A DNA stretch of 64,000 bases from the sequence record PX068454.1, one strand, 5' to 3'. The DNA comes from a phage. Position numbers and translations under genes: made by a program. Every line of letters begins with the position of its first letter. Positions within the stretch are counted from its first letter, which is position 1. The notes under the pieces were generated by a model. It was not told the origin of the DNA, did no database searches, and worked only from the letters and a program-made list of their open reading frames with translations. Positions 12,925 to 17,903 of the stretch are shown one piece after another.

Positions 12925-13124
12925 TTGTCGTCCCCTTTCTTACGGATATAGATGTGAGAGCCTGCCTGTATATAAATTTCTCGACCATCTTCTGCAAAGA
13001 TATGAAATACACGATCACCTTCATACTCGATACGTGATATCTTCATAATGGTCTTTCCACCTGGGATGCGGATCTCGTCCCCCACAGCGATGTTCCATGC
13101 AGATTTAAGCTTAAACATCTGCAC
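12921..13124 (-). CDS. hypothetical protein (67 aa)
   Basis: ORF track; 4-nt overlap coupling. Confidence 0.5.
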   Translation of the reverse strand: MQMFKLKSAWNIAVGDEIRIPGGKTIMKISRIEYEGDRVFHIFAEDGREIYIQAGSHIYIRKKGDDK

Positions 13125-13356
13125 CCTCCTTTGGGAGCTCTAACTCTGGCATAGCCATATACGCCACAACAGGGTTGTAATCAAAGTAGAAATGACCGTT
13201 AATTATCCCAGTTTTGTGAGCATAGTCACCAGATCCTGCAAGAACAACCTCGCAAACTCCGAAATCCACCTTGCCATTCTCATCTGCCATGGCTACAATA
13301 TACTTTCCTAGAGGCATGTTTTTAACGCCGTCTACAAATGTCCACCCTTTGTTCAT
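13111..13356 (-). CDS. hypothetical protein (81 aa)
   Basis: ORF track. Confidence 0.5.
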   Translation of the reverse strand: MNKGWTFVDGVKNMPLGKYIVAMADENGKVDFGVCEVVLAGSGDYAHKTGIINGHFYFDYNPVVAYMAMPELELPKEGADV

Positions 13357-13376
13357 ACTTTATCTCCTGCATTCTC

Positions 13377-13709
13377 TTAAGGTAACCAGTAAACAATCTC
13401 GCCTTTCAGCTTCATGTCGTTTCCAACATAAATTTGCCAGCCATCCATCTTAGCAGCTGCAGGCCCAAAGTCATCCGCACCCCTTACCTCTTTCCAGGTC
13501 CCGTAGTCAGGTTGCCAGATGTAAAATCCACCTTCTTTGTCCCATGCTCCATACACTACGTTTAACAAGTTTCCCATTGCAACAATAGTGGGCCGTGGGA
13601 ACAATGCATCTACAGATGCGCCACAATATCTGGTATCTTTTAAATTGCACTCCCAAAAGATGTCTGCCAGTGTGGCGGCGATAGCTTTACGTCTTTCTAA
13701 TGTTACCAT
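13377..13709 (-). CDS. hypothetical protein (110 aa)
   Basis: ORF track. Confidence 0.55.
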   Translation of the reverse strand: MVTLERRKAIAATLADIFWECNLKDTRYCGASVDALFPRPTIVAMGNLLNVVYGAWDKEGGFYIWQPDYGTWKEVRGADDFGPAAAKMDGWQIYVGNDMKLKGEIVYWLP

Positions 13710-13716
13710 ATCATAC

Positions 13717-13908
13717 TCACTTGTTGTTAATAAGTTCTAAAACTTTCTGTCTTACCTTATCAATATCTGTTGATTCAAAAACTGTACGATATCCCCAACT
13801 TTGCCCATAAGAATGGCTGCAATCACCATAACACCATTGCTCAATTTGATAGTATTCAAGGAACGGGTGCTGTCTAACTATGATACCGTCCCGGTTAAAA
13901 ATTACCAT
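13717..13908 (-). CDS. hypothetical protein (63 aa)
   Basis: ORF track. Confidence 0.45.
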   Translation of the reverse strand: MVIFNRDGIIVRQHPFLEYYQIEQWCYGDCSHSYGQSWGYRTVFESTDIDKVRQKVLELINNK

Positions 13909-13971
13909 AATACATCACTCTCTGTTAGTTTATGCGTATATTATACACTGCAGTTTTCAGATGTCAACCTC

Positions 13972-14166
13972 TTACAGATTGCTCCAGTACAATCGGCATT
14001 TACATTTTGGGCAATGAGGTTCTTTTATGTAATAACCGTCAGTCTTTGGAACACTTTTTGGTGCAGTTTTAATATTGTACCTGGTAAAACATCGGAAGCA
14101 GGTTACCTCTCCAATCTGTTGATCGTTGATCCACTCGCCAGAGTAAAGTTCTTTCTTGTTCCTCAT
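13972..14166 (-). CDS. Cys-rich zinc-ribbon-like protein (64 aa)
   Basis: CxxC and CPKCKC pairs. Confidence 0.5.
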   Translation of the reverse strand: MRNKKELYSGEWINDQQIGEVTCFRCFTRYNIKTAPKSVPKTDGYYIKEPHCPKCKCRLYWSNL

Positions 14167-14402
14167 AAGCCCTCCTCAGTCCTCCAGAACAAATACCAAC
14201 TCTCCGGTAAATGTTTTTGCAAAGTAATAGCCTGAACATTCATCACTTTTGTACAGCCACCACGTGTCCCAGTCAGGAAGTCGTACAAGGATATGCTAGG
14301 CCCATCTATTACTGGGTATTCTTCAAACGGCCCTTGATTATCCGATTGCGTGGACACACATATGTAGGTTTTCATGCCAGAATCTCCAGCCAGAAAGCGC
14401 AC
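14163..14402 (-). CDS. hypothetical protein (79 aa)
   Basis: ORF track. Confidence 0.5.
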   Translation of the reverse strand: MRFLAGDSGMKTYICVSTQSDNQGPFEEYPVIDGPSISLYDFLTGTRGGCTKVMNVQAITLQKHLPESWYLFWRTEEGL

Positions 14403-14596
14403 GGGAACACTTTGATGATTGAATCTTTACCCGGTTCGGCAGTTCTTTTTCCGTAGGGTAGGTAGAAATACCCTCCTGCAGATTCGAACACAGCCCCTTC
14501 GGTTGTATCTATCACAGCTAGAATTAAGATTTTAGTCTCCACAGTGCTCTCCTCTCTTAGTTGTTGTGGAAACTATATCACCTCAGAAGATGGTCG

Positions 14597-15055
14597 TCAA
14601 CACTTTTTGTACTCTACTACAACCACATCAATATCTGTGGTTGCAAGATTAATTACATCTTCTACATGTTCCCACTTTAGACCGCCAATACCGCATCCGA
14701 TTTTAGGAATGTAGAACGGCAATGACACACCTTTGAATACCTCGTTGACTCGCTCAAAACCTTTCATGATTGAGAAGTATTCAGCATTGGGCCCTGGGTA
14801 GAACTGGGTATACAGGTTGATTCCATATACGACCCTGTTCTTGGCAAAATGCTCCCAACAAGAAAACATACCCAGCTTGTCTAGATTCCCATAAGCAGTC
14901 TCTTTGTCGGCTGCCAGTGCTTGAGGGAACTCACGGGCAATATCTTTCGCTATGCCTGCACCCATTGTGTGAAAGCAGTTACAACCGTGGATCAGGTGAC
15001 CAGCACCGCTCTTAAAAAGGGAGATTAAATCTCCCGCTACAGTATCAATAATCAC
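14597..15055 (-). CDS. macro-domain protein (ADP-ribose binding or hydrolysing fold)
   Basis: Motifs HGCNCFHTMGAGIA and IGCGIGG resemble macro-domain Gly-rich loops; 152 aa. Confidence 0.65.
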   Translation of the reverse strand: MIIDTVAGDLISLFKSGAGHLIHGCNCFHTMGAGIAKDIAREFPQALAADKETAYGNLDKLGMFSCWEHFAKNRVVYGINLYTQFYPGPNAEYFSIMKGFERVNEVFKGVSLPFYIPKIGCGIGGLKWEHVEDVINLATTDIDVVVVEYKKC

Positions 15056-15470
15056 GGTATGTCAGCTCCTCTTCCGCAATTTCAAAAAACTCATCCCAAC
15101 CTTGTGGCATATTTGAGTTGCCGAAGTGGCTTTCATAGTAAAGGTTCTCACCACTTGGGAGATAGAAATCTGTTACCTCGTAGAATCCACAATCGTCGCA
15201 CTCGCCTTCTTCAAACTTGGCCTCAACCTTAATACCTAGGAAGGTGAAAAGTTTATGGATATCTTCAGTTTCGAACTCCCAGCAGATATTGTTTTCCGCA
15301 TCGGTGTAGAACTGGATCAGCAGACCATTATCCAGTTTACCAAAATATTCTGTGAAGTAACTACCTTCCCAGAAATCTTTATGACAAATAATATCCATGC
15401 GCTTGCCCATGATAAAGGTGTGGGCGTTTTGGGCATCGTCACGAATCAGTTTTGGCATTTCATAGATCAT
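15045..15470 (-). CDS. hypothetical protein (141 aa), coupled to the macro-domain gene
   Basis: 11-nt overlap with downstream macro gene. Confidence 0.55.
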   Translation of the reverse strand: MIYEMPKLIRDDAQNAHTFIMGKRMDIICHKDFWEGSYFTEYFGKLDNGLLIQFYTDAENNICWEFETEDIHKLFTFLGIKVEAKFEEGECDDCGFYEVTDFYLPSGENLYYESHFGNSNMPQGWDEFFEIAEEELTYRDY

Positions 15471-15538
15471 CTTAGTTCTCCGGGTTCAACAGGTGGTGGT
15501 GCTACAGGAAGATCATAAAACATAGCTATCACAGTCTC

Positions 15539-15736
15539 TTACACAGGAATTGCTTCAAACAGGCCGTTATCTATACCGTCCTTCAGATAGAGATTATATT
15601 CTATGTCGGTATCTGTATAAAGGGCAGCATCCAGCATTCTATCTGTGAGTCCATCCATTGGGTGGAGAAACCACCACCCACGCCAGTCAAAGTAACAGCC
15701 TGGTGCATCTTCTCTTACACGGATTCGATAAATCAT
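15539..15736 (-). CDS. hypothetical protein (65 aa)
   Basis: ORF track. Confidence 0.45.
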   Translation of the reverse strand: MIYRIRVREDAPGCYFDWRGWWFLHPMDGLTDRMLDAALYTDTDIEYNLYLKDGIDNGLFEAIPV

Positions 15737-15832
15737 GGGCAGTGGCCTCCTGTTAGTTATACATCCCAGTTTTCTTCGTTCATCACGTCCTCCCGTTCTA
15801 TGAAGTTATAATTGCACACCTTTCCACCTGTG

Positions 15833-16249
15833 TCAACAGAAAACTTCAACAAACTCTTCCACAGTTTTAATGCCGTGGGAAAAAGGTTTACGGCTATAAC
15901 GGGCAATAGCACTATCAACCACCGCCCGGTACTCCAAATCTTCAGAATATTTCATGAAGCATTGCAGCGTCTCTGGGCAGATAGCTAAATAGCTCCACCA
16001 CCCTTCTTCAGATTGGTAGTCGAATCCCATACTTTCCAACCATGAAGCATATACTCCTGCACCCTCAAGCCAGTGAGTATTTTCATCCAGAAACTTGTTA
16101 ATAGACATGTGAGCTTCTAAGCATTTATCCAGCTCTTTTCCGTTAACCAGCCACGCACTGACCGTGGCGCATCCAAGGTCTACAGATTGAGTTGACAGGT
16201 TGTATTGGTCATAGTTCTCAGGTTTAACAATGATATCTTCTAATGTCAT
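15833..16249 (-). CDS. hypothetical protein (138 aa)
   Basis: ORF track; RBS AAGGAGA upstream. Confidence 0.55.
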   Translation of the reverse strand: MTLEDIIVKPENYDQYNLSTQSVDLGCATVSAWLVNGKELDKCLEAHMSINKFLDENTHWLEGAGVYASWLESMGFDYQSEEGWWSYLAICPETLQCFMKYSEDLEYRAVVDSAIARYSRKPFSHGIKTVEEFVEVFC

Positions 16250-16265
16250 TTTTTAGATCTCCTTA

Positions 16266-16297
16266 TACAAAAATGCCCCACCCTTTCGGGCAGGGCT
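16266..16297 (-). terminator. rho-independent terminator
   Basis: Minus strand GCCCTGCCCGAAAGGGTGGGGC followed by ATTTTTG; same hairpin at 26598-26619. Confidence 0.6.
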
Positions 16298-16311
16298 ATG
16301 TTAACTAAATG

Positions 16312-17538
16312 TTAAAATGGGATGTCATCATCAAAGACGTACTGTGCTGGATTCTGATCCATTGGGTCATCTTCCGCATCATTTACAGGAGGAGCGTCTA
16401 CAGTGTTTTGCTGTGGAGCTGCTTCCTGTTTGGCAGCCTGAGGTTCTTGATGGTCAGTGGACTCAGCACCGTTCTTGATCCAATCGTACAACGGCTCAGC
16501 TAGATTAGTCAAGACATCTTTTGCTTCTGCAGTAATTGCTACTGCAAAATCATCAACTTTCGTTTTCTTGTCAATACGGCGACAAGCGTTCAACACCGCA
16601 TTACCGACACTGGCACCTACTTCATCCTCAGTTCGGTTGGTGGCTTGAGCATACTCTTTCTTAAGCTCAATGGTGACTACGTGCAGTGTTTTAGCCACGC
16701 TTAGTGGGTCGTCCACCTTAAACCCGCGATCTAGGATGATTTGCAACGCATTGATGCTATGTCCCGTCTCCACACCAATAGGGTCGTAAGAGGATTTACG
16801 CTTGCCACCAGAGCCTTGGGTGCCGTTCTCTGCCTTAGGTGGATAGGCTTTGAAACCACTGATAATGTTTCCGGTGTCTTTGTCAACAATGGCTGCAACA
16901 CGACCACCTACCACCAGGTCTTTAAGCTGCTCATCAGTGACAACCATAGCACCTTCGCCAATCTTGTGGTCATTAACAGTAACCACGTTGCCAACAATCT
17001 GAGTCACATCACCATAGATGCGTAAAACGTCCTGATTGGCATTCTGCTGAGGTTTCTGCTTCTGGCCTTGTGATTGTGCACCTTGTTGCTGTTTTTGCTG
17101 CTGAGTCGCTGCTGGAGCCTCTCCTGCACCTAGCTTGACCATCTTAGCCAGTGAGCCTTTGTAATAGGTCTTACCGTTATGCTCGTTTGCCTTCAAAGGG
17201 ATATTTACGATCCATCCCGGTGTTACGGTTTCCCACTTGTCATCAATTTTAACAGAGACAGAGTCTTGATGACCCGGTTTAAGCAGTTTATCACCCATAC
17301 TGATCCAGACTTCTTCACCACCTTGAAGCAGGTTATCAGAGGAATCCAGTTCAGAAATCAGTAAAGAGATGGTGTGGCTGGACTCAATTTTCTTACCTTG
17401 CCACACAGTGGTTTTAATACCTGTTGTAGGATCAGCACCTTTGATAGGTTTGATGCTGACACGTTTAATCATGCCGTGAGCCAGTAAAACAGTTTCACGC
17501 GGATTCATCGGGTTAGCAAATTGTTGAATAACGCTCAT
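16312..17538 (-). CDS. ssb: single-stranded DNA-binding protein (408 aa)
   Basis: C-terminus ends DDDIPF, the acidic tail of bacterial SSB; Gln-rich linker. Confidence 0.7.
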   Translation of the reverse strand: MSVIQQFANPMNPRETVLLAHGMIKRVSIKPIKGADPTTGIKTTVWQGKKIESSHTISLLISELDSSDNLLQGGEEVWISMGDKLLKPGHQDSVSVKIDDKWETVTPGWIVNIPLKANEHNGKTYYKGSLAKMVKLGAGEAPAATQQQKQQQGAQSQGQKQKPQQNANQDVLRIYGDVTQIVGNVVTVNDHKIGEGAMVVTDEQLKDLVVGGRVAAIVDKDTGNIISGFKAYPPKAENGTQGSGGKRKSSYDPIGVETGHSINALQIILDRGFKVDDPLSVAKTLHVVTIELKKEYAQATNRTEDEVGASVGNAVLNACRRIDKKTKVDDFAVAITAEAKDVLTNLAEPLYDWIKNGAESTDHQEPQAAKQEAAPQQNTVDAPPVNDAEDDPMDQNPAQYVFDDDIPF

Positions 17539-17903
17539 TATTTGTCTCCTTGTTCTTCGTTAGTGTTTGCCGTGTGTGCAAACCCTGCTTGAATTAATTT
17601 GTCCTGAACTTGAGCCAGCAGGCCCATTGCAAAACTTGTGGTCCCAGAGAGGGCCATCAGCATATCTCGTTGTTGAGCTACCCAACCTAAGGCATAGTCC
17701 AAACGACGATATTTTTCTTCTTCACGCAAAGCTTGGAATAATTGTTCAGCCTCTGGCTGTTGTGTGAGCTCCTGAAGTCTTCCCATGAAAGAAGAAAGCA
17801 CTAGCAGAAGAGACACTTGATCTTTACTTAACCCTAAGAAAAATTCTTGAGGTTGTTCTTGCTCGTTCATCGCAACCGACGCTTGATCGTTCATTTGTTC
17901 CAT
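17538..17903 (-). CDS. hypothetical protein (121 aa)
   Basis: ORF track. Confidence 0.5.
   Translation of the reverse strand: MEQMNDQASVAMNEQEQPQEFFLGLSKDQVSLLLVLSSFMGRLQELTQQPEAEQLFQALREEEKYRRLDYALGWVAQQRDMLMALSGTTSFAMGLLAQVQDKLIQAGFAHTANTNEEQGDK

What the first reader, a model, noticed from the sequence alone, without database searches (positions are those of the whole stretch)
14597..15470. Macro-domain protein translationally coupled to an unknown partner: candidate counter-defence pair
CDS 14597-15055 has macro-domain signatures (HGCNCFHTMGAGIA and IGCGIGG), a fold that binds or hydrolyses ADP-ribose derivatives. It overlaps by 11 nt with the upstream 141-aa ORF of unknown function. A phage-borne macro domain could reverse ADP-ribosylation by host toxins or degrade ADP-ribose-derived immune signals. 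The partner has no motif I recognise.
Basis: partly seen in the sequence, partly recalled or inferred. Interest (0 to 1): 0.6.

Follow-up and report, generated by a model that had tools for sequence, protein, structure and literature searches.

The report
Phage anti-DarT macrodomain, unrelated neighbour gene
The macro-domain gene is real and belongs to the Tk.4/AdfM family, which T4 and PhiKZ phages use to strip toxic ADP-ribose off their DNA, but the overlapping upstream gene is an orphan acidic protein that sits beside it only in this one phage genus, so the pair idea does not hold.

Summary
The window comes from an rV5-like E. coli phage (Vequintavirus). Both ORFs exist exactly as described, on the minus strand. 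They are a 152-aa macro-domain protein (14597-15055, GTG start) and a 141-aa protein (15045-15470), overlapping by 11 nt.

The macro protein is the annotated rV5 gp204 "Tk.4". It aligns full-length with T4 Tk.4 (39% identity, E 1e-43). T4 Tk.4 was recently shown to be AdfM, the factor that protects T4 from the DarTG2 defence system. The predicted structure (pLDDT 96.7) is closest to TARG1, Poa1p, the DarG macrodomain and SCO6735. It carries the SCO6735-type Asn/Gln active site (N26, Q84); SCO6735 hydrolyses thymidine-linked ADP-ribosyl-DNA. The counter-defence reading is therefore right in kind, but already known.

The pair hypothesis is not supported. The partner family (PHROG 8157) is tiny, and it adjoins the macro gene only in Vequintavirus. 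Elsewhere it precedes dam (RB49) or a QueC-like gene. In one relative it lies 1.4 kb downstream of the macro gene, and in another it occurs where no macro gene is present. Short overlaps are common in this gene cluster. The partner is strongly acidic, non-essential, and has no match among solved or predicted viral structures.

A conserved hairpin inside the 5' end of tk.4 was noticed in passing.

The parts
14597..15055 (-). Macro-domain CDS (152 aa, GTG start). It is the orthologue of rV5 gp204 'Tk.4' and Bas54 bas54_0092, and a member of the Tk.4/AdfM family.
   Evidence: AF2 pLDDT 96.7. Foldseek top matches are TARG1, Poa1p, DarG and SCO6735. PADLOC DarG E 1.4e-13. N26 and Q84 align with SCO6735 Asn27 and Gln85.
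15045..15470 (-). Upstream 'partner' CDS (141 aa, ATG start). It is the orthologue of rV5 gp205 and Bas54 bas54_0091, in PHROG 8157. It is acidic (pI 4.2), with a conserved C-terminal core at about residues 83-135 containing CxxC...H.
15045..15055 (-). The 11-nt overlap. The macro GTG (15055-15053) lies inside the partner's last codons (CGT GAT TAT TGA); the partner stop is at 15047-15045.
   Evidence: Sequence read directly. The same overlap is present in rV5, Bas54 and Bas57.
15066..15071 (-). GAGGAG Shine-Dalgarno for the macro gene, 10 nt upstream of the GTG and inside the partner ORF.
   Evidence: Sequence read directly.
15478..15481 (-). GGAG Shine-Dalgarno for the partner gene, 7 nt upstream of its ATG.
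   Evidence: Sequence read directly.
15014..15035 (-). Hairpin GGGAGAT-TTA-ATCTCCC followed by TTTTT, at codons 8-13 of the macro ORF and about 10 nt after the partner stop. It is conserved with compensatory changes in T4, RB49 and Vequintavirus tk.4 genes.
15808..15836 (-). Sigma-70-like promoter match (TTGACA-17-AATTAT with an extended TG) that could drive gp206, partner, macro and the downstream small genes.
   Evidence: Consensus scan only. Not annotated in rV5.
13972..14166 (-). Small zinc-binding protein (Phage_zn_bind_2, rV5 gp201), two genes downstream of the macro gene. rV5's annotators list it as similar to an RB49 protein, and a same-sized gene (ORF090c) directly follows tk.4 in RB49.
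   Evidence: The identification with ORF090c rests on neighbouring accession numbers and equal length, not on an alignment.

Best explanation
The 152-aa protein is a stand-alone macrodomain of the Tk.4/AdfM family, an orphan, antitoxin-like ADP-ribosylglycohydrolase. It is expressed early with its neighbours. It most likely binds ADP-ribose attached to thymidine in single-stranded phage DNA by a host DarT2-type toxin and hydrolyses the ribose-base bond, so that replication can proceed (inferred). Catalysis would be of the SCO6735 type: Gln84, held by Asn26, positions the distal ribose where DarG and TARG1 use a lysine (inferred from alignment).

The upstream 141-aa gene is a separate accessory gene that happens to abut the macro gene in Vequintavirus. 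The overlap probably couples translation of the weak GTG start to termination of the upstream ORF (inferred), as in many neighbouring gene pairs, but it does not indicate a shared function. The partner is an acidic, aromatic-rich, non-essential early protein. Its most likely role is as a stoichiometric binder of some host or phage macromolecule, acting independently of the macrodomain. This last point is a low-confidence inference.
For: Macro family and fold:
- Pfam Macro is above its threshold; PHROG 335 E 1.4e-59.
- Full-length 39% identity to T4 Tk.4, E 1e-43, and 69% identity to RB49 Tk.4.
- The AF2 model has pLDDT 96.7. The closest solved folds are TARG1, Poa1p, the DarG macrodomains, BT1257 and SCO6735.
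- PADLOC DarG E 1.4e-13 and NCBIfam DarG E 1.7e-12, both over the macro part only.

Function of homologues:
- A T4 tk.4 knockout is sensitised to DarTG2, and the gene was named adfM (bioRxiv 10.1101/2025.11.20.689424).
- PhiKZ AdfM removes ADP-ribose from TNTC-modified ssDNA (PMC13309987).

Active site:
- The family motif N-l-Y-t-Q aligns with NMIGQH of SCO6735 and BT1257, and with LITKK of TARG1.
- In SCO6735, Gln85 is essential for hydrolysis of thymidine-linked ADPr-DNA and the N27S mutant is nearly inactive (PMC9411070).
- N26 and Q84 are invariant in 88 family members.

Accessory status:
- The Bas54 orthologues of both genes are non-essential in HIDEN-SEQ.
- One 135.5-kb genome carries a deletion that fuses and inactivates both genes.

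Independence of the partner:
- In RB49 its homologue precedes dam, about 9 kb from tk.4.
- In L005/L006 it precedes a QueC-like gene.
- In L017 the macro gene follows an unrelated 151-aa gene and the partner homologue lies 1.4 kb downstream.
- The related L007 has the partner homologue but no macro gene at that site.
- Only 2 of 80 IMG/VR macro loci have a partner homologue within 2 kb.
Against: No experiment exists on any Vequintavirus macro protein. Identity to T4 AdfM is only 39%, and macrodomains of this class also act on proteins and small molecules. The records annotate the gene as 'phosphatase' (Poa1p-like).

The catalytic lysine of DarG is replaced by Gln, so the mechanism rests on analogy with one enzyme, SCO6735.

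Within Vequintavirus the overlap and gene order are strictly conserved, even where the partner has diverged to 72% identity. A lineage-specific functional link therefore cannot be excluded. No interaction prediction could be run.

The partner's function remains undetermined.
Confidence: 0.65

Rival explanations
1. The two proteins work together as a Vequintavirus-specific module. The partner would be a potentiator, localiser, specificity subunit or regulator of the macrodomain.
For: The 11-nt overlap and gene order are conserved throughout Vequintavirus, including variants with 72% partner identity. Both genes are confined to accessory early regions and both are non-essential. The partner family occurs only in the two lineages, Vequintavirus and Krischvirus, whose macro proteins are at least 60% identical to this one: 177 records against 178. 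For the NADAR counterpart AdfN, an unknown extra T-even factor was proposed to be needed for full activity (PMC11825919).
Against: In Krischvirus the homologues are about 9 kb apart, in different gene neighbourhoods. In L017 the order is reversed, with several ORFs including a DHFR gene between them. L007 has the partner without a macro gene at the locus. T4 AdfM and PhiKZ AdfM work without any such protein, and PhiKZ AdfM counteracted DarT2 toxicity when co-expressed in E. coli. Overlaps of this size are common in the cluster.
Confidence: 0.07
2. The macrodomain has a different primary substrate. Candidates are ADP-ribosylated protein or RNA (for example products of CmdT-like toxins or phage ADP-ribosyltransferases), O-acetyl-ADP-ribose, ADP-ribose-1''-phosphate (the annotated 'phosphatase'), or ADP-ribose-derived immune signals such as Thoeris His-ADPR or gcADPR.
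For: Poa1p (an ADP-ribose-1''-phosphate phosphatase) and TARG1 (a protein de-ADP-ribosylase) are among the closest folds. SCO6735 also acts on proteins. Macrodomains bind His-ADPR in Thoeris II ThsA. Database names include 'phosphatase' and 'O-acetyl-ADP-ribose deacetylase'.
Against: The only genetic phenotype reported for a family member is DarTG2 sensitivity, as the single significant hit of a genome-wide screen. The SCO6735-type Asn/Gln pair has been tied experimentally to thymidine-ADPr-DNA hydrolysis. The database names are automated annotation, not tests.
Confidence: 0.2
3. The partner is itself an independent anti-defence or host-takeover protein, for example an acidic mimic or inhibitor aimed at a DNA-targeting host factor. 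It sits next to the macro gene because both lie in an accessory anti-defence gene cluster.
For: pI is 4.2 with net charge about -21, conserved across the family. The gene is early, non-essential and narrowly distributed. In three lineages its downstream neighbour is a DNA-modification or DNA-repair type gene: macro, Dam, or a QueC-like PP-loop protein. It has no match among solved structures.
Against: The evidence is purely circumstantial. There is no homology to any known anti-defence protein (no PADLOC, Pfam, NCBIfam or PDB hit). Neighbour identity in dense phage early regions is weak evidence.
Confidence: 0.3

Closest known systems
T4 Tk.4 = AdfM (anti-DarT factor, macrodomain), bioRxiv 10.1101/2025.11.20.689424
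   Same: Both are single-domain proteins of about 152-155 aa that align end to end (39% identity, E 1e-43). They share the family-invariant motifs and an early accessory gene setting. They also share the hairpin at codons 7-15.
   Different: The upstream neighbour is vs in T4 and the orphan 141-aa gene here. The start codon is GTG here. No experimental test exists for the Vequintavirus protein.
Streptomyces coelicolor SCO6735 (PDB 5E3B) and Bacteroides BT1257 (2FG1/2AFC)
   Same: Same ALC1-like/TARG1-like macro fold. Gln occupies the position of the DarG/TARG1 catalytic Lys, together with its stabilising Asn. SCO6735 hydrolyses thymidine-linked ADPr-DNA and rescues cells from DarT toxicity.
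   Different: These are bacterial chromosomal proteins. The Foldseek alignment with SCO6735 shows 22% identity. SCO6735 Lys34 aligns with Ala33 here, and its Val25 with Gly24. SCO6735's longer mobile loop was not examined.
DarG antitoxin of DarTG2 (PDB 5M31, 5M3I, 7OMU; NCBIfam NF048014)
   Same: Macrodomain homology (PADLOC DarG E 1.4e-13). The presumed substrate is the same, ADPr-thymidine in ssDNA.
   Different: This protein lacks DarG's C-terminal DarT-binding domain. It scores 47 bits against an equivalog cut-off of 250. The catalytic Lys80 is replaced by Gln. No darT is adjacent.
PhiKZ gp104 AdfM (PMC13309987)
   Same: A phage orphan macrodomain that counters DarT2, with enzymatic removal of ADPr from ssDNA shown in vitro.
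   Different: It belongs to a nucleus-forming jumbo phage and is imported into the phage nucleus. Direct sequence relatedness to the window protein was not measured here.

Membership tests
Macro domain superfamily (Pfam PF01661) | Profile match above the curated threshold | tested here: met
   25.9 bits against a gathering cut-off of 22, but only residues 22-53 aligned. Full-length matches to PHROG 335 and to PDB macrodomains with the family profile, E 1e-14 to 1e-9.
Macro domain superfamily (Pfam PF01661) | Three-layer alpha/beta/alpha macro fold | tested here: met
   AF2 pLDDT 96.7, pTM 0.91. Foldseek probability 1.00 and TM 0.71-0.78 to TARG1, Poa1p, DarG and SCO6735.
Macro domain superfamily (Pfam PF01661) | Glycine-rich ADP-ribose/phosphate-binding loops | tested here: met
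   HGCNCFHTMGAGIA and PKIGCGIGG align with the corresponding loops of TARG1 (MPRIGCGLDR) and SCO6735 (LPRIGCGLAGG). G24, N26, G34, G120 and G122 are invariant in 88 sequences.
Tk.4/AdfM phage orphan macrodomains | Full-length homology to T4 Tk.4 | tested here: met
   39% identity over 150 of 152 residues, E 1e-43. rV5 gp204 is annotated tk.4.
Tk.4/AdfM phage orphan macrodomains | Stand-alone domain with no toxin-binding extension and no adjacent darT | tested here: met
   The protein is 152 aa and matches only positions 4-144 of the 338-position DarG model. Of the neighbours scanned, only the downstream Phage_zn_bind_2 protein has a Pfam match, and none resembles a toxin.
Tk.4/AdfM phage orphan macrodomains | Protects the phage against DarTG2 | not testable with these tools
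   Shown for T4 and PhiKZ only.
SCO6735-type (Gln) ALC1-like macrodomain hydrolases | Gln at the position of TARG1 Lys84 / DarG Lys80, and Asn equivalent to SCO6735 Asn27 | tested here: met
   The profile alignment places Q84 opposite the Q of NMIGQH in SCO6735/BT1257 and opposite K84 of TARG1. N26 lies opposite the N of HVCND. The role of these residues comes from PMC9411070.
SCO6735-type (Gln) ALC1-like macrodomain hydrolases | Hydrolysis of thymidine-linked ADP-ribosyl-DNA | not testable with these tools
   Requires a biochemical assay.
DarG antitoxin (NCBIfam NF048014 equivalog) | Score above the equivalog cut-off; two-domain architecture; catalytic Lys80 | tested here: not met
   47.3 bits against a cut-off of 250. 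There is no C-terminal domain, and Gln replaces the Lys. The protein is DarG-like in activity class but is not a DarG.
Conserved two-gene module (macro + partner) | Adjacency maintained across independent lineages that carry both genes | tested here: not met
   The genes are adjacent only in Vequintavirus. They are about 9 kb apart in RB49. In L017 they are 1.4 kb apart in reversed order. The partner occurs without the macro gene at the locus in L007 and L005. The upstream neighbour of the macro gene differs in T4, SUSP1, phAPEC8 and Seunavirus.
Von Willebrand factor D domain (for the partner's C-terminal core) | Significant profile match | tested here: not met
   The library hit P0132 (E 3e-8) is seven near-identical repeats scoring only about 9.7 bits each. 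No Pfam VWD hit for any of 11 family members at E up to 10.

The most novel reading that the evidence does not exclude
The 141-aa partner (PHROG 8157) is a previously undescribed kind of small acidic phage protein, with no match among solved or predicted viral structures. It has a conserved CxxC...H C-terminal core and acts on its own as an anti-defence or DNA-protection factor. In three lineages it sits immediately upstream of a gene that modifies or repairs DNA bases: the ADPr-removing macrodomain, Dam methylase, or a QueC-like enzyme. Alternatively, in Vequintavirus it could modulate the macrodomain.
Probability: 0.12. Interest if true: 0.5.

Novelty: new member of a known kind. Interest (0 to 1): 0.25.

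Why it matters
It extends the recently defined AdfM class of anti-DarT2 factors to the V5-like phages, which are used as therapeutic and typing phages for E. coli. It also gives a residue-level prediction to test: the Asn26/Gln84, SCO6735-type mechanism rather than the DarG lysine mechanism.

The result also shows that gene overlap in dense phage early regions should not be read as functional pairing.

The partner family remains one of many orphan early proteins. Its narrow distribution and unmatched fold make it a reasonable but low-priority target for anti-defence screens.

Tried and rejected

2. VWD-domain resemblance of the partner core (C-x2-CG-Y...DF-x2-P-[ST]-G...FGN[ST]). Rejected as statistically unsupported: about 9.7 bits per repeat.

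3. The 151-aa gene near the partner homologue in L007 was suspected to be a macro gene. It is not.

4. The afdb50 fold library was unavailable.

6. A de Bruijn assembly artefact was considered for the fusion protein P0004. It is unlikely, because the shared stretch, read, is only about 10 nt (CCAGTTCTAC).

7. The word-indexed protein search found only 4 partner relatives. The exhaustive HMMER search was needed to reach the Krischvirus-type relatives.

Full report
**Observation**

The window is from an rV5-like E. coli myovirus (genus Vequintavirus). Region 13000-17600 is 97.7% identical to phage rV5_ev147 and matches 120 phage records.

On the minus strand, ORF 14597-15055 (152 aa, GTG start) and ORF 15045-15470 (141 aa, ATG start) exist exactly as described and overlap by 11 nt. 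They correspond to rV5 gp204 ('tk.4, phosphatase') and gp205 ('hypothetical').

The GTG start is correct. The protein aligns from residue 1 with T4 Tk.4, and a GAGGAG lies 10 nt upstream at 15071-15066. The quoted motifs are present at residues 23-36 and 119-125.

**What the macro protein is**

- Pfam Macro passes its gathering score, though only over the N-terminal loop. PHROG 335 matches end to end, E 1.4e-59.
- tblastn finds relatives in 2831 phage records: T4-like tk.4 next to vs, Ounavirinae (SUSP1), Phapecoctavirus, Seunavirus, and Pseudomonas, Vibrio and Acinetobacter phages.
- An AlphaFold2 model built from 88 homologues has pLDDT 96.7. Its best Foldseek matches in the PDB are TARG1, yeast Poa1p, the DarG macrodomains of Thermus and Mycobacterium, BT1257 and SCO6735, with TM 0.71-0.78.
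- The PADLOC DarG model (E 1.4e-13) and the NCBIfam DarG model (47 bits against a cut-off of 250) match over the macro part only. The protein is therefore DarG-like but not a DarG, because it lacks the toxin-binding domain.

**Function by homology**

A 2025 preprint found tk.4 as the single significant hit when a T4 transposon library was challenged with DarTG2. A clean knockout was sensitised, and the gene was named adfM. A 2026 paper showed that PhiKZ gp104, also named AdfM, removes ADP-ribose from DarT2-modified TNTC ssDNA and counteracts DarT2 toxicity. The window protein is 39% identical to T4 Tk.4 over its whole length (E 1e-43).

**Active site**

In a profile-to-PDB alignment, the family motif N80-x-Y82-T83-Q84 lies opposite NMIGQH of SCO6735 and BT1257, and opposite LITKK of TARG1. 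Q84 therefore occupies the position of the catalytic lysine of TARG1 (K84) and DarG (K80).

SCO6735 has the same substitution. Its Gln85 is essential and its Asn27, which holds Gln85 in place, is nearly essential. The enzyme hydrolyses thymidine-linked ADP-ribosyl-DNA and rescues cells from DarT. N26 and Q84 are invariant in all 88 aligned family members.

The most likely mechanism is therefore SCO6735-type hydrolysis of ADPr-thymidine on phage ssDNA. The alignment and residue conservation are shown here. The substrate and the phenotype are inferred.

**The partner**

- It matches PHROG 8157 (E 4e-81) and has no Pfam, NCBIfam, PADLOC or PDB sequence match.
- An exhaustive HMMER search of 1.84 billion representatives found only 11 proteins. 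tblastn found it in 177 phage records, all apparently Vequintavirus or RB49-like T4 relatives such as Krischvirus.
- Residues 83-135 are conserved (EGECDDCG-Y-V-D--LPSG---Y-E-HFGN-N-P--W-EFF). The N-terminal half varies, and in one member it is replaced by another sequence.
- The protein is very acidic (pI 4.2, 31 D+E against 10 K+R) and 19% aromatic, as is the rest of the family.
- A library hit to a eukaryotic VWD-repeat protein is an artefact of seven near-identical repeats, each scoring about 9.7 bits. No member hits Pfam VWD.

**Is it a pair?**

- Within Vequintavirus the order and the 11-nt overlap are conserved, even where the partner is only 72% identical.
- Outside that genus the association dissolves.
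  - In RB49 the partner homologue (ORF064c) overlaps the start of dam, while tk.4 sits about 9 kb away between vs and ORF090c.
  - In two metagenomic contigs the homologue overlaps a QueC-like PP-loop gene.
  - In L017, a 139-kb relative, a macro gene 79% identical to this one follows an unrelated 151-aa gene and is followed by DHFR. The partner homologue lies 1.4 kb downstream.
  - In the related L007 the same 151-aa gene (89% identical) and the partner homologue are present, but the macro/DHFR segment is not.
- Only 2 of 80 IMG/VR macro loci have a partner homologue within 2 kb.
- The macro gene's upstream neighbour differs in T4 (vs), SUSP1, phAPEC8 and a Seunavirus.
- Overlaps are routine here: 12 of about 31 adjacent pairs in the homologous rV5 stretch overlap by 1-29 nt.
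- T4 AdfM and PhiKZ AdfM work without such a partner.

The overlap plausibly gives translational coupling to a weak GTG start. The GTG is forced by the partner's CGT-GAT codons; L017, which lacks the overlap, uses ATG. There is no evidence of a shared function.

**Dispensability**

In Bas54 (phage MaxBurger) the orthologues bas54_0091 (96.5% identical) and bas54_0092 (95.4% identical) are both 'Non-essential' by transposon sequencing. One 135.5-kb genome carries an in-frame deletion that joins partner residues 1-55 to macro residues 86-152 at a shared QFY stretch, about 10 nt long by my reading. Both observations fit accessory, condition-specific roles.

**Side finding**

A terminator-like hairpin (GGGAGAT-TTA-ATCTCCC followed by T5, 15035-15014) lies at codons 8-13 of the macro ORF, about 10 nt after the partner stop.

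- The same hairpin is present in rV5, Bas54, Bas57, RB49 and T4 tk.4.
- It shows compensatory changes: GGA/UCC to GGC/GCC, which also changes Ser to Ala; AAG/CUU to AAA/UUG; and GAU/AUC to GAC/GUC.
- Against synonymous recodings of the same peptide, the observed stability falls in the top 0.1-3%.
- On 36 distinct 5' ends, kept only if they aligned from residue 1 with Gly at codon 8 and not selected for the hairpin, 67.9% of cells pair against 60.5 ± 1.2 in shuffles. Covariation is 0.262 against 0.158 (0 of 500 shuffles reach either value), and slid controls reach at most 0.147.
- These sequences are related to one another, so the evidence is suggestive rather than conclusive. The hairpin is absent from clades where the fifth motif residue is Lys, Glu or Gln.

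Its role is unknown. It could be a transcription attenuator, a stabiliser of the 3' end of the upstream mRNA, or a modulator of translation.

**Verdict**

- The counter-defence interpretation of the macrodomain is supported by homology, but the function has already been published for homologues and the gene is already annotated in rV5.
- The pair interpretation is not supported.
- Novelty: a new, untested member of a known kind. Interest is low to moderate.

Noticed in passing
window 15014-15035 (-); also L004 (T4 tk.4 5' end), L003 (RB49), L001, L014, L015: A terminator-like hairpin at codons 8-13 of the macro/tk.4 ORF is conserved between Vequintavirus, RB49 and T4-like phages, with compensatory substitutions. 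It is more stable than 97-99.9% of synonymous recodings, and covariation exceeds the shuffled and slid controls on 36 distinct sequences. Phage Murica's record lists a terminator among the features under the macro match. Its function is unknown.
   Followed up: partly
L010 3001-3366 (protein P0004), contig logan:ERR11560567_708: One rV5-like genome has an in-frame deletion that fuses partner residues 1-55 to macro residues 86-152, across a shared QFY stretch that is about 10 nt long by my reading of the window sequence. Both genes are inactivated. The gp202 and gp200 equivalents are also missing there.
   Followed up: partly
window 13972-14166 (-); L003 2857-3051 (RB49 ORF090c): A 64-aa Phage_zn_bind_2 protein (rV5 gp201) lies two genes downstream of the macro gene. 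In RB49 a gene of the same size (ORF090c) directly follows tk.4 with an 11-nt overlap, and it is probably the protein that rV5's annotators list as gp201's RB49 homologue. That identification rests on neighbouring accession numbers and equal length, not on an alignment. If it holds, the macro/zinc-protein proximity recurs in two phage families, unlike the macro/partner adjacency.
   Followed up: no
window 14597-15055 vs L003 (RB49 tk.4) and L004 (T4 tk.4): The Vequintavirus macro protein is 69% identical to Krischvirus (RB49) Tk.4 but only 39% identical to T4 Tk.4. rV5's annotators also list RB49 homologues for gp200, gp201 and gp205. This suggests gene exchange between these two unrelated E. 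coli phage lineages.
   Followed up: partly
protein P0132 (3189 aa, eukaryotic VWD-repeat protein) vs partner residues 76-119: The partner's invariant core residues (C-x2-C-G-x-Y ... D-F-x2-P-S-G ... F-G-N-S) coincide with the signature at the C-terminal end of VWD domains. Each repeat scores only about 9.7 bits, so this is treated as chance, although the positional coincidence is striking.
   Followed up: yes
L005 935-1627 and L006 571-1263: In two metagenomic contigs the partner homologue overlaps by 17 nt a 230-aa protein with an N-terminal QueC-like PP-loop motif (Pfam E 3.3e-7). This may be part of a 7-deazaguanine DNA-modification cluster.
   Followed up: no
window 16275-16296 (-): A strong intrinsic-terminator-like hairpin (9-bp stem with 7 GC pairs, then ATTTTTGTAT) lies between the 408-aa gene (16312-17538) and the 138-aa gene (15833-16249). 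It probably marks a transcription-unit boundary upstream of the macro cluster.
   Followed up: no
window 14163-14402 (-): The ORF equivalent to rV5 gp202 has no PHROG match. It is absent from Bas54 and from L010, so it is a variable small gene within the cluster.
   Followed up: no
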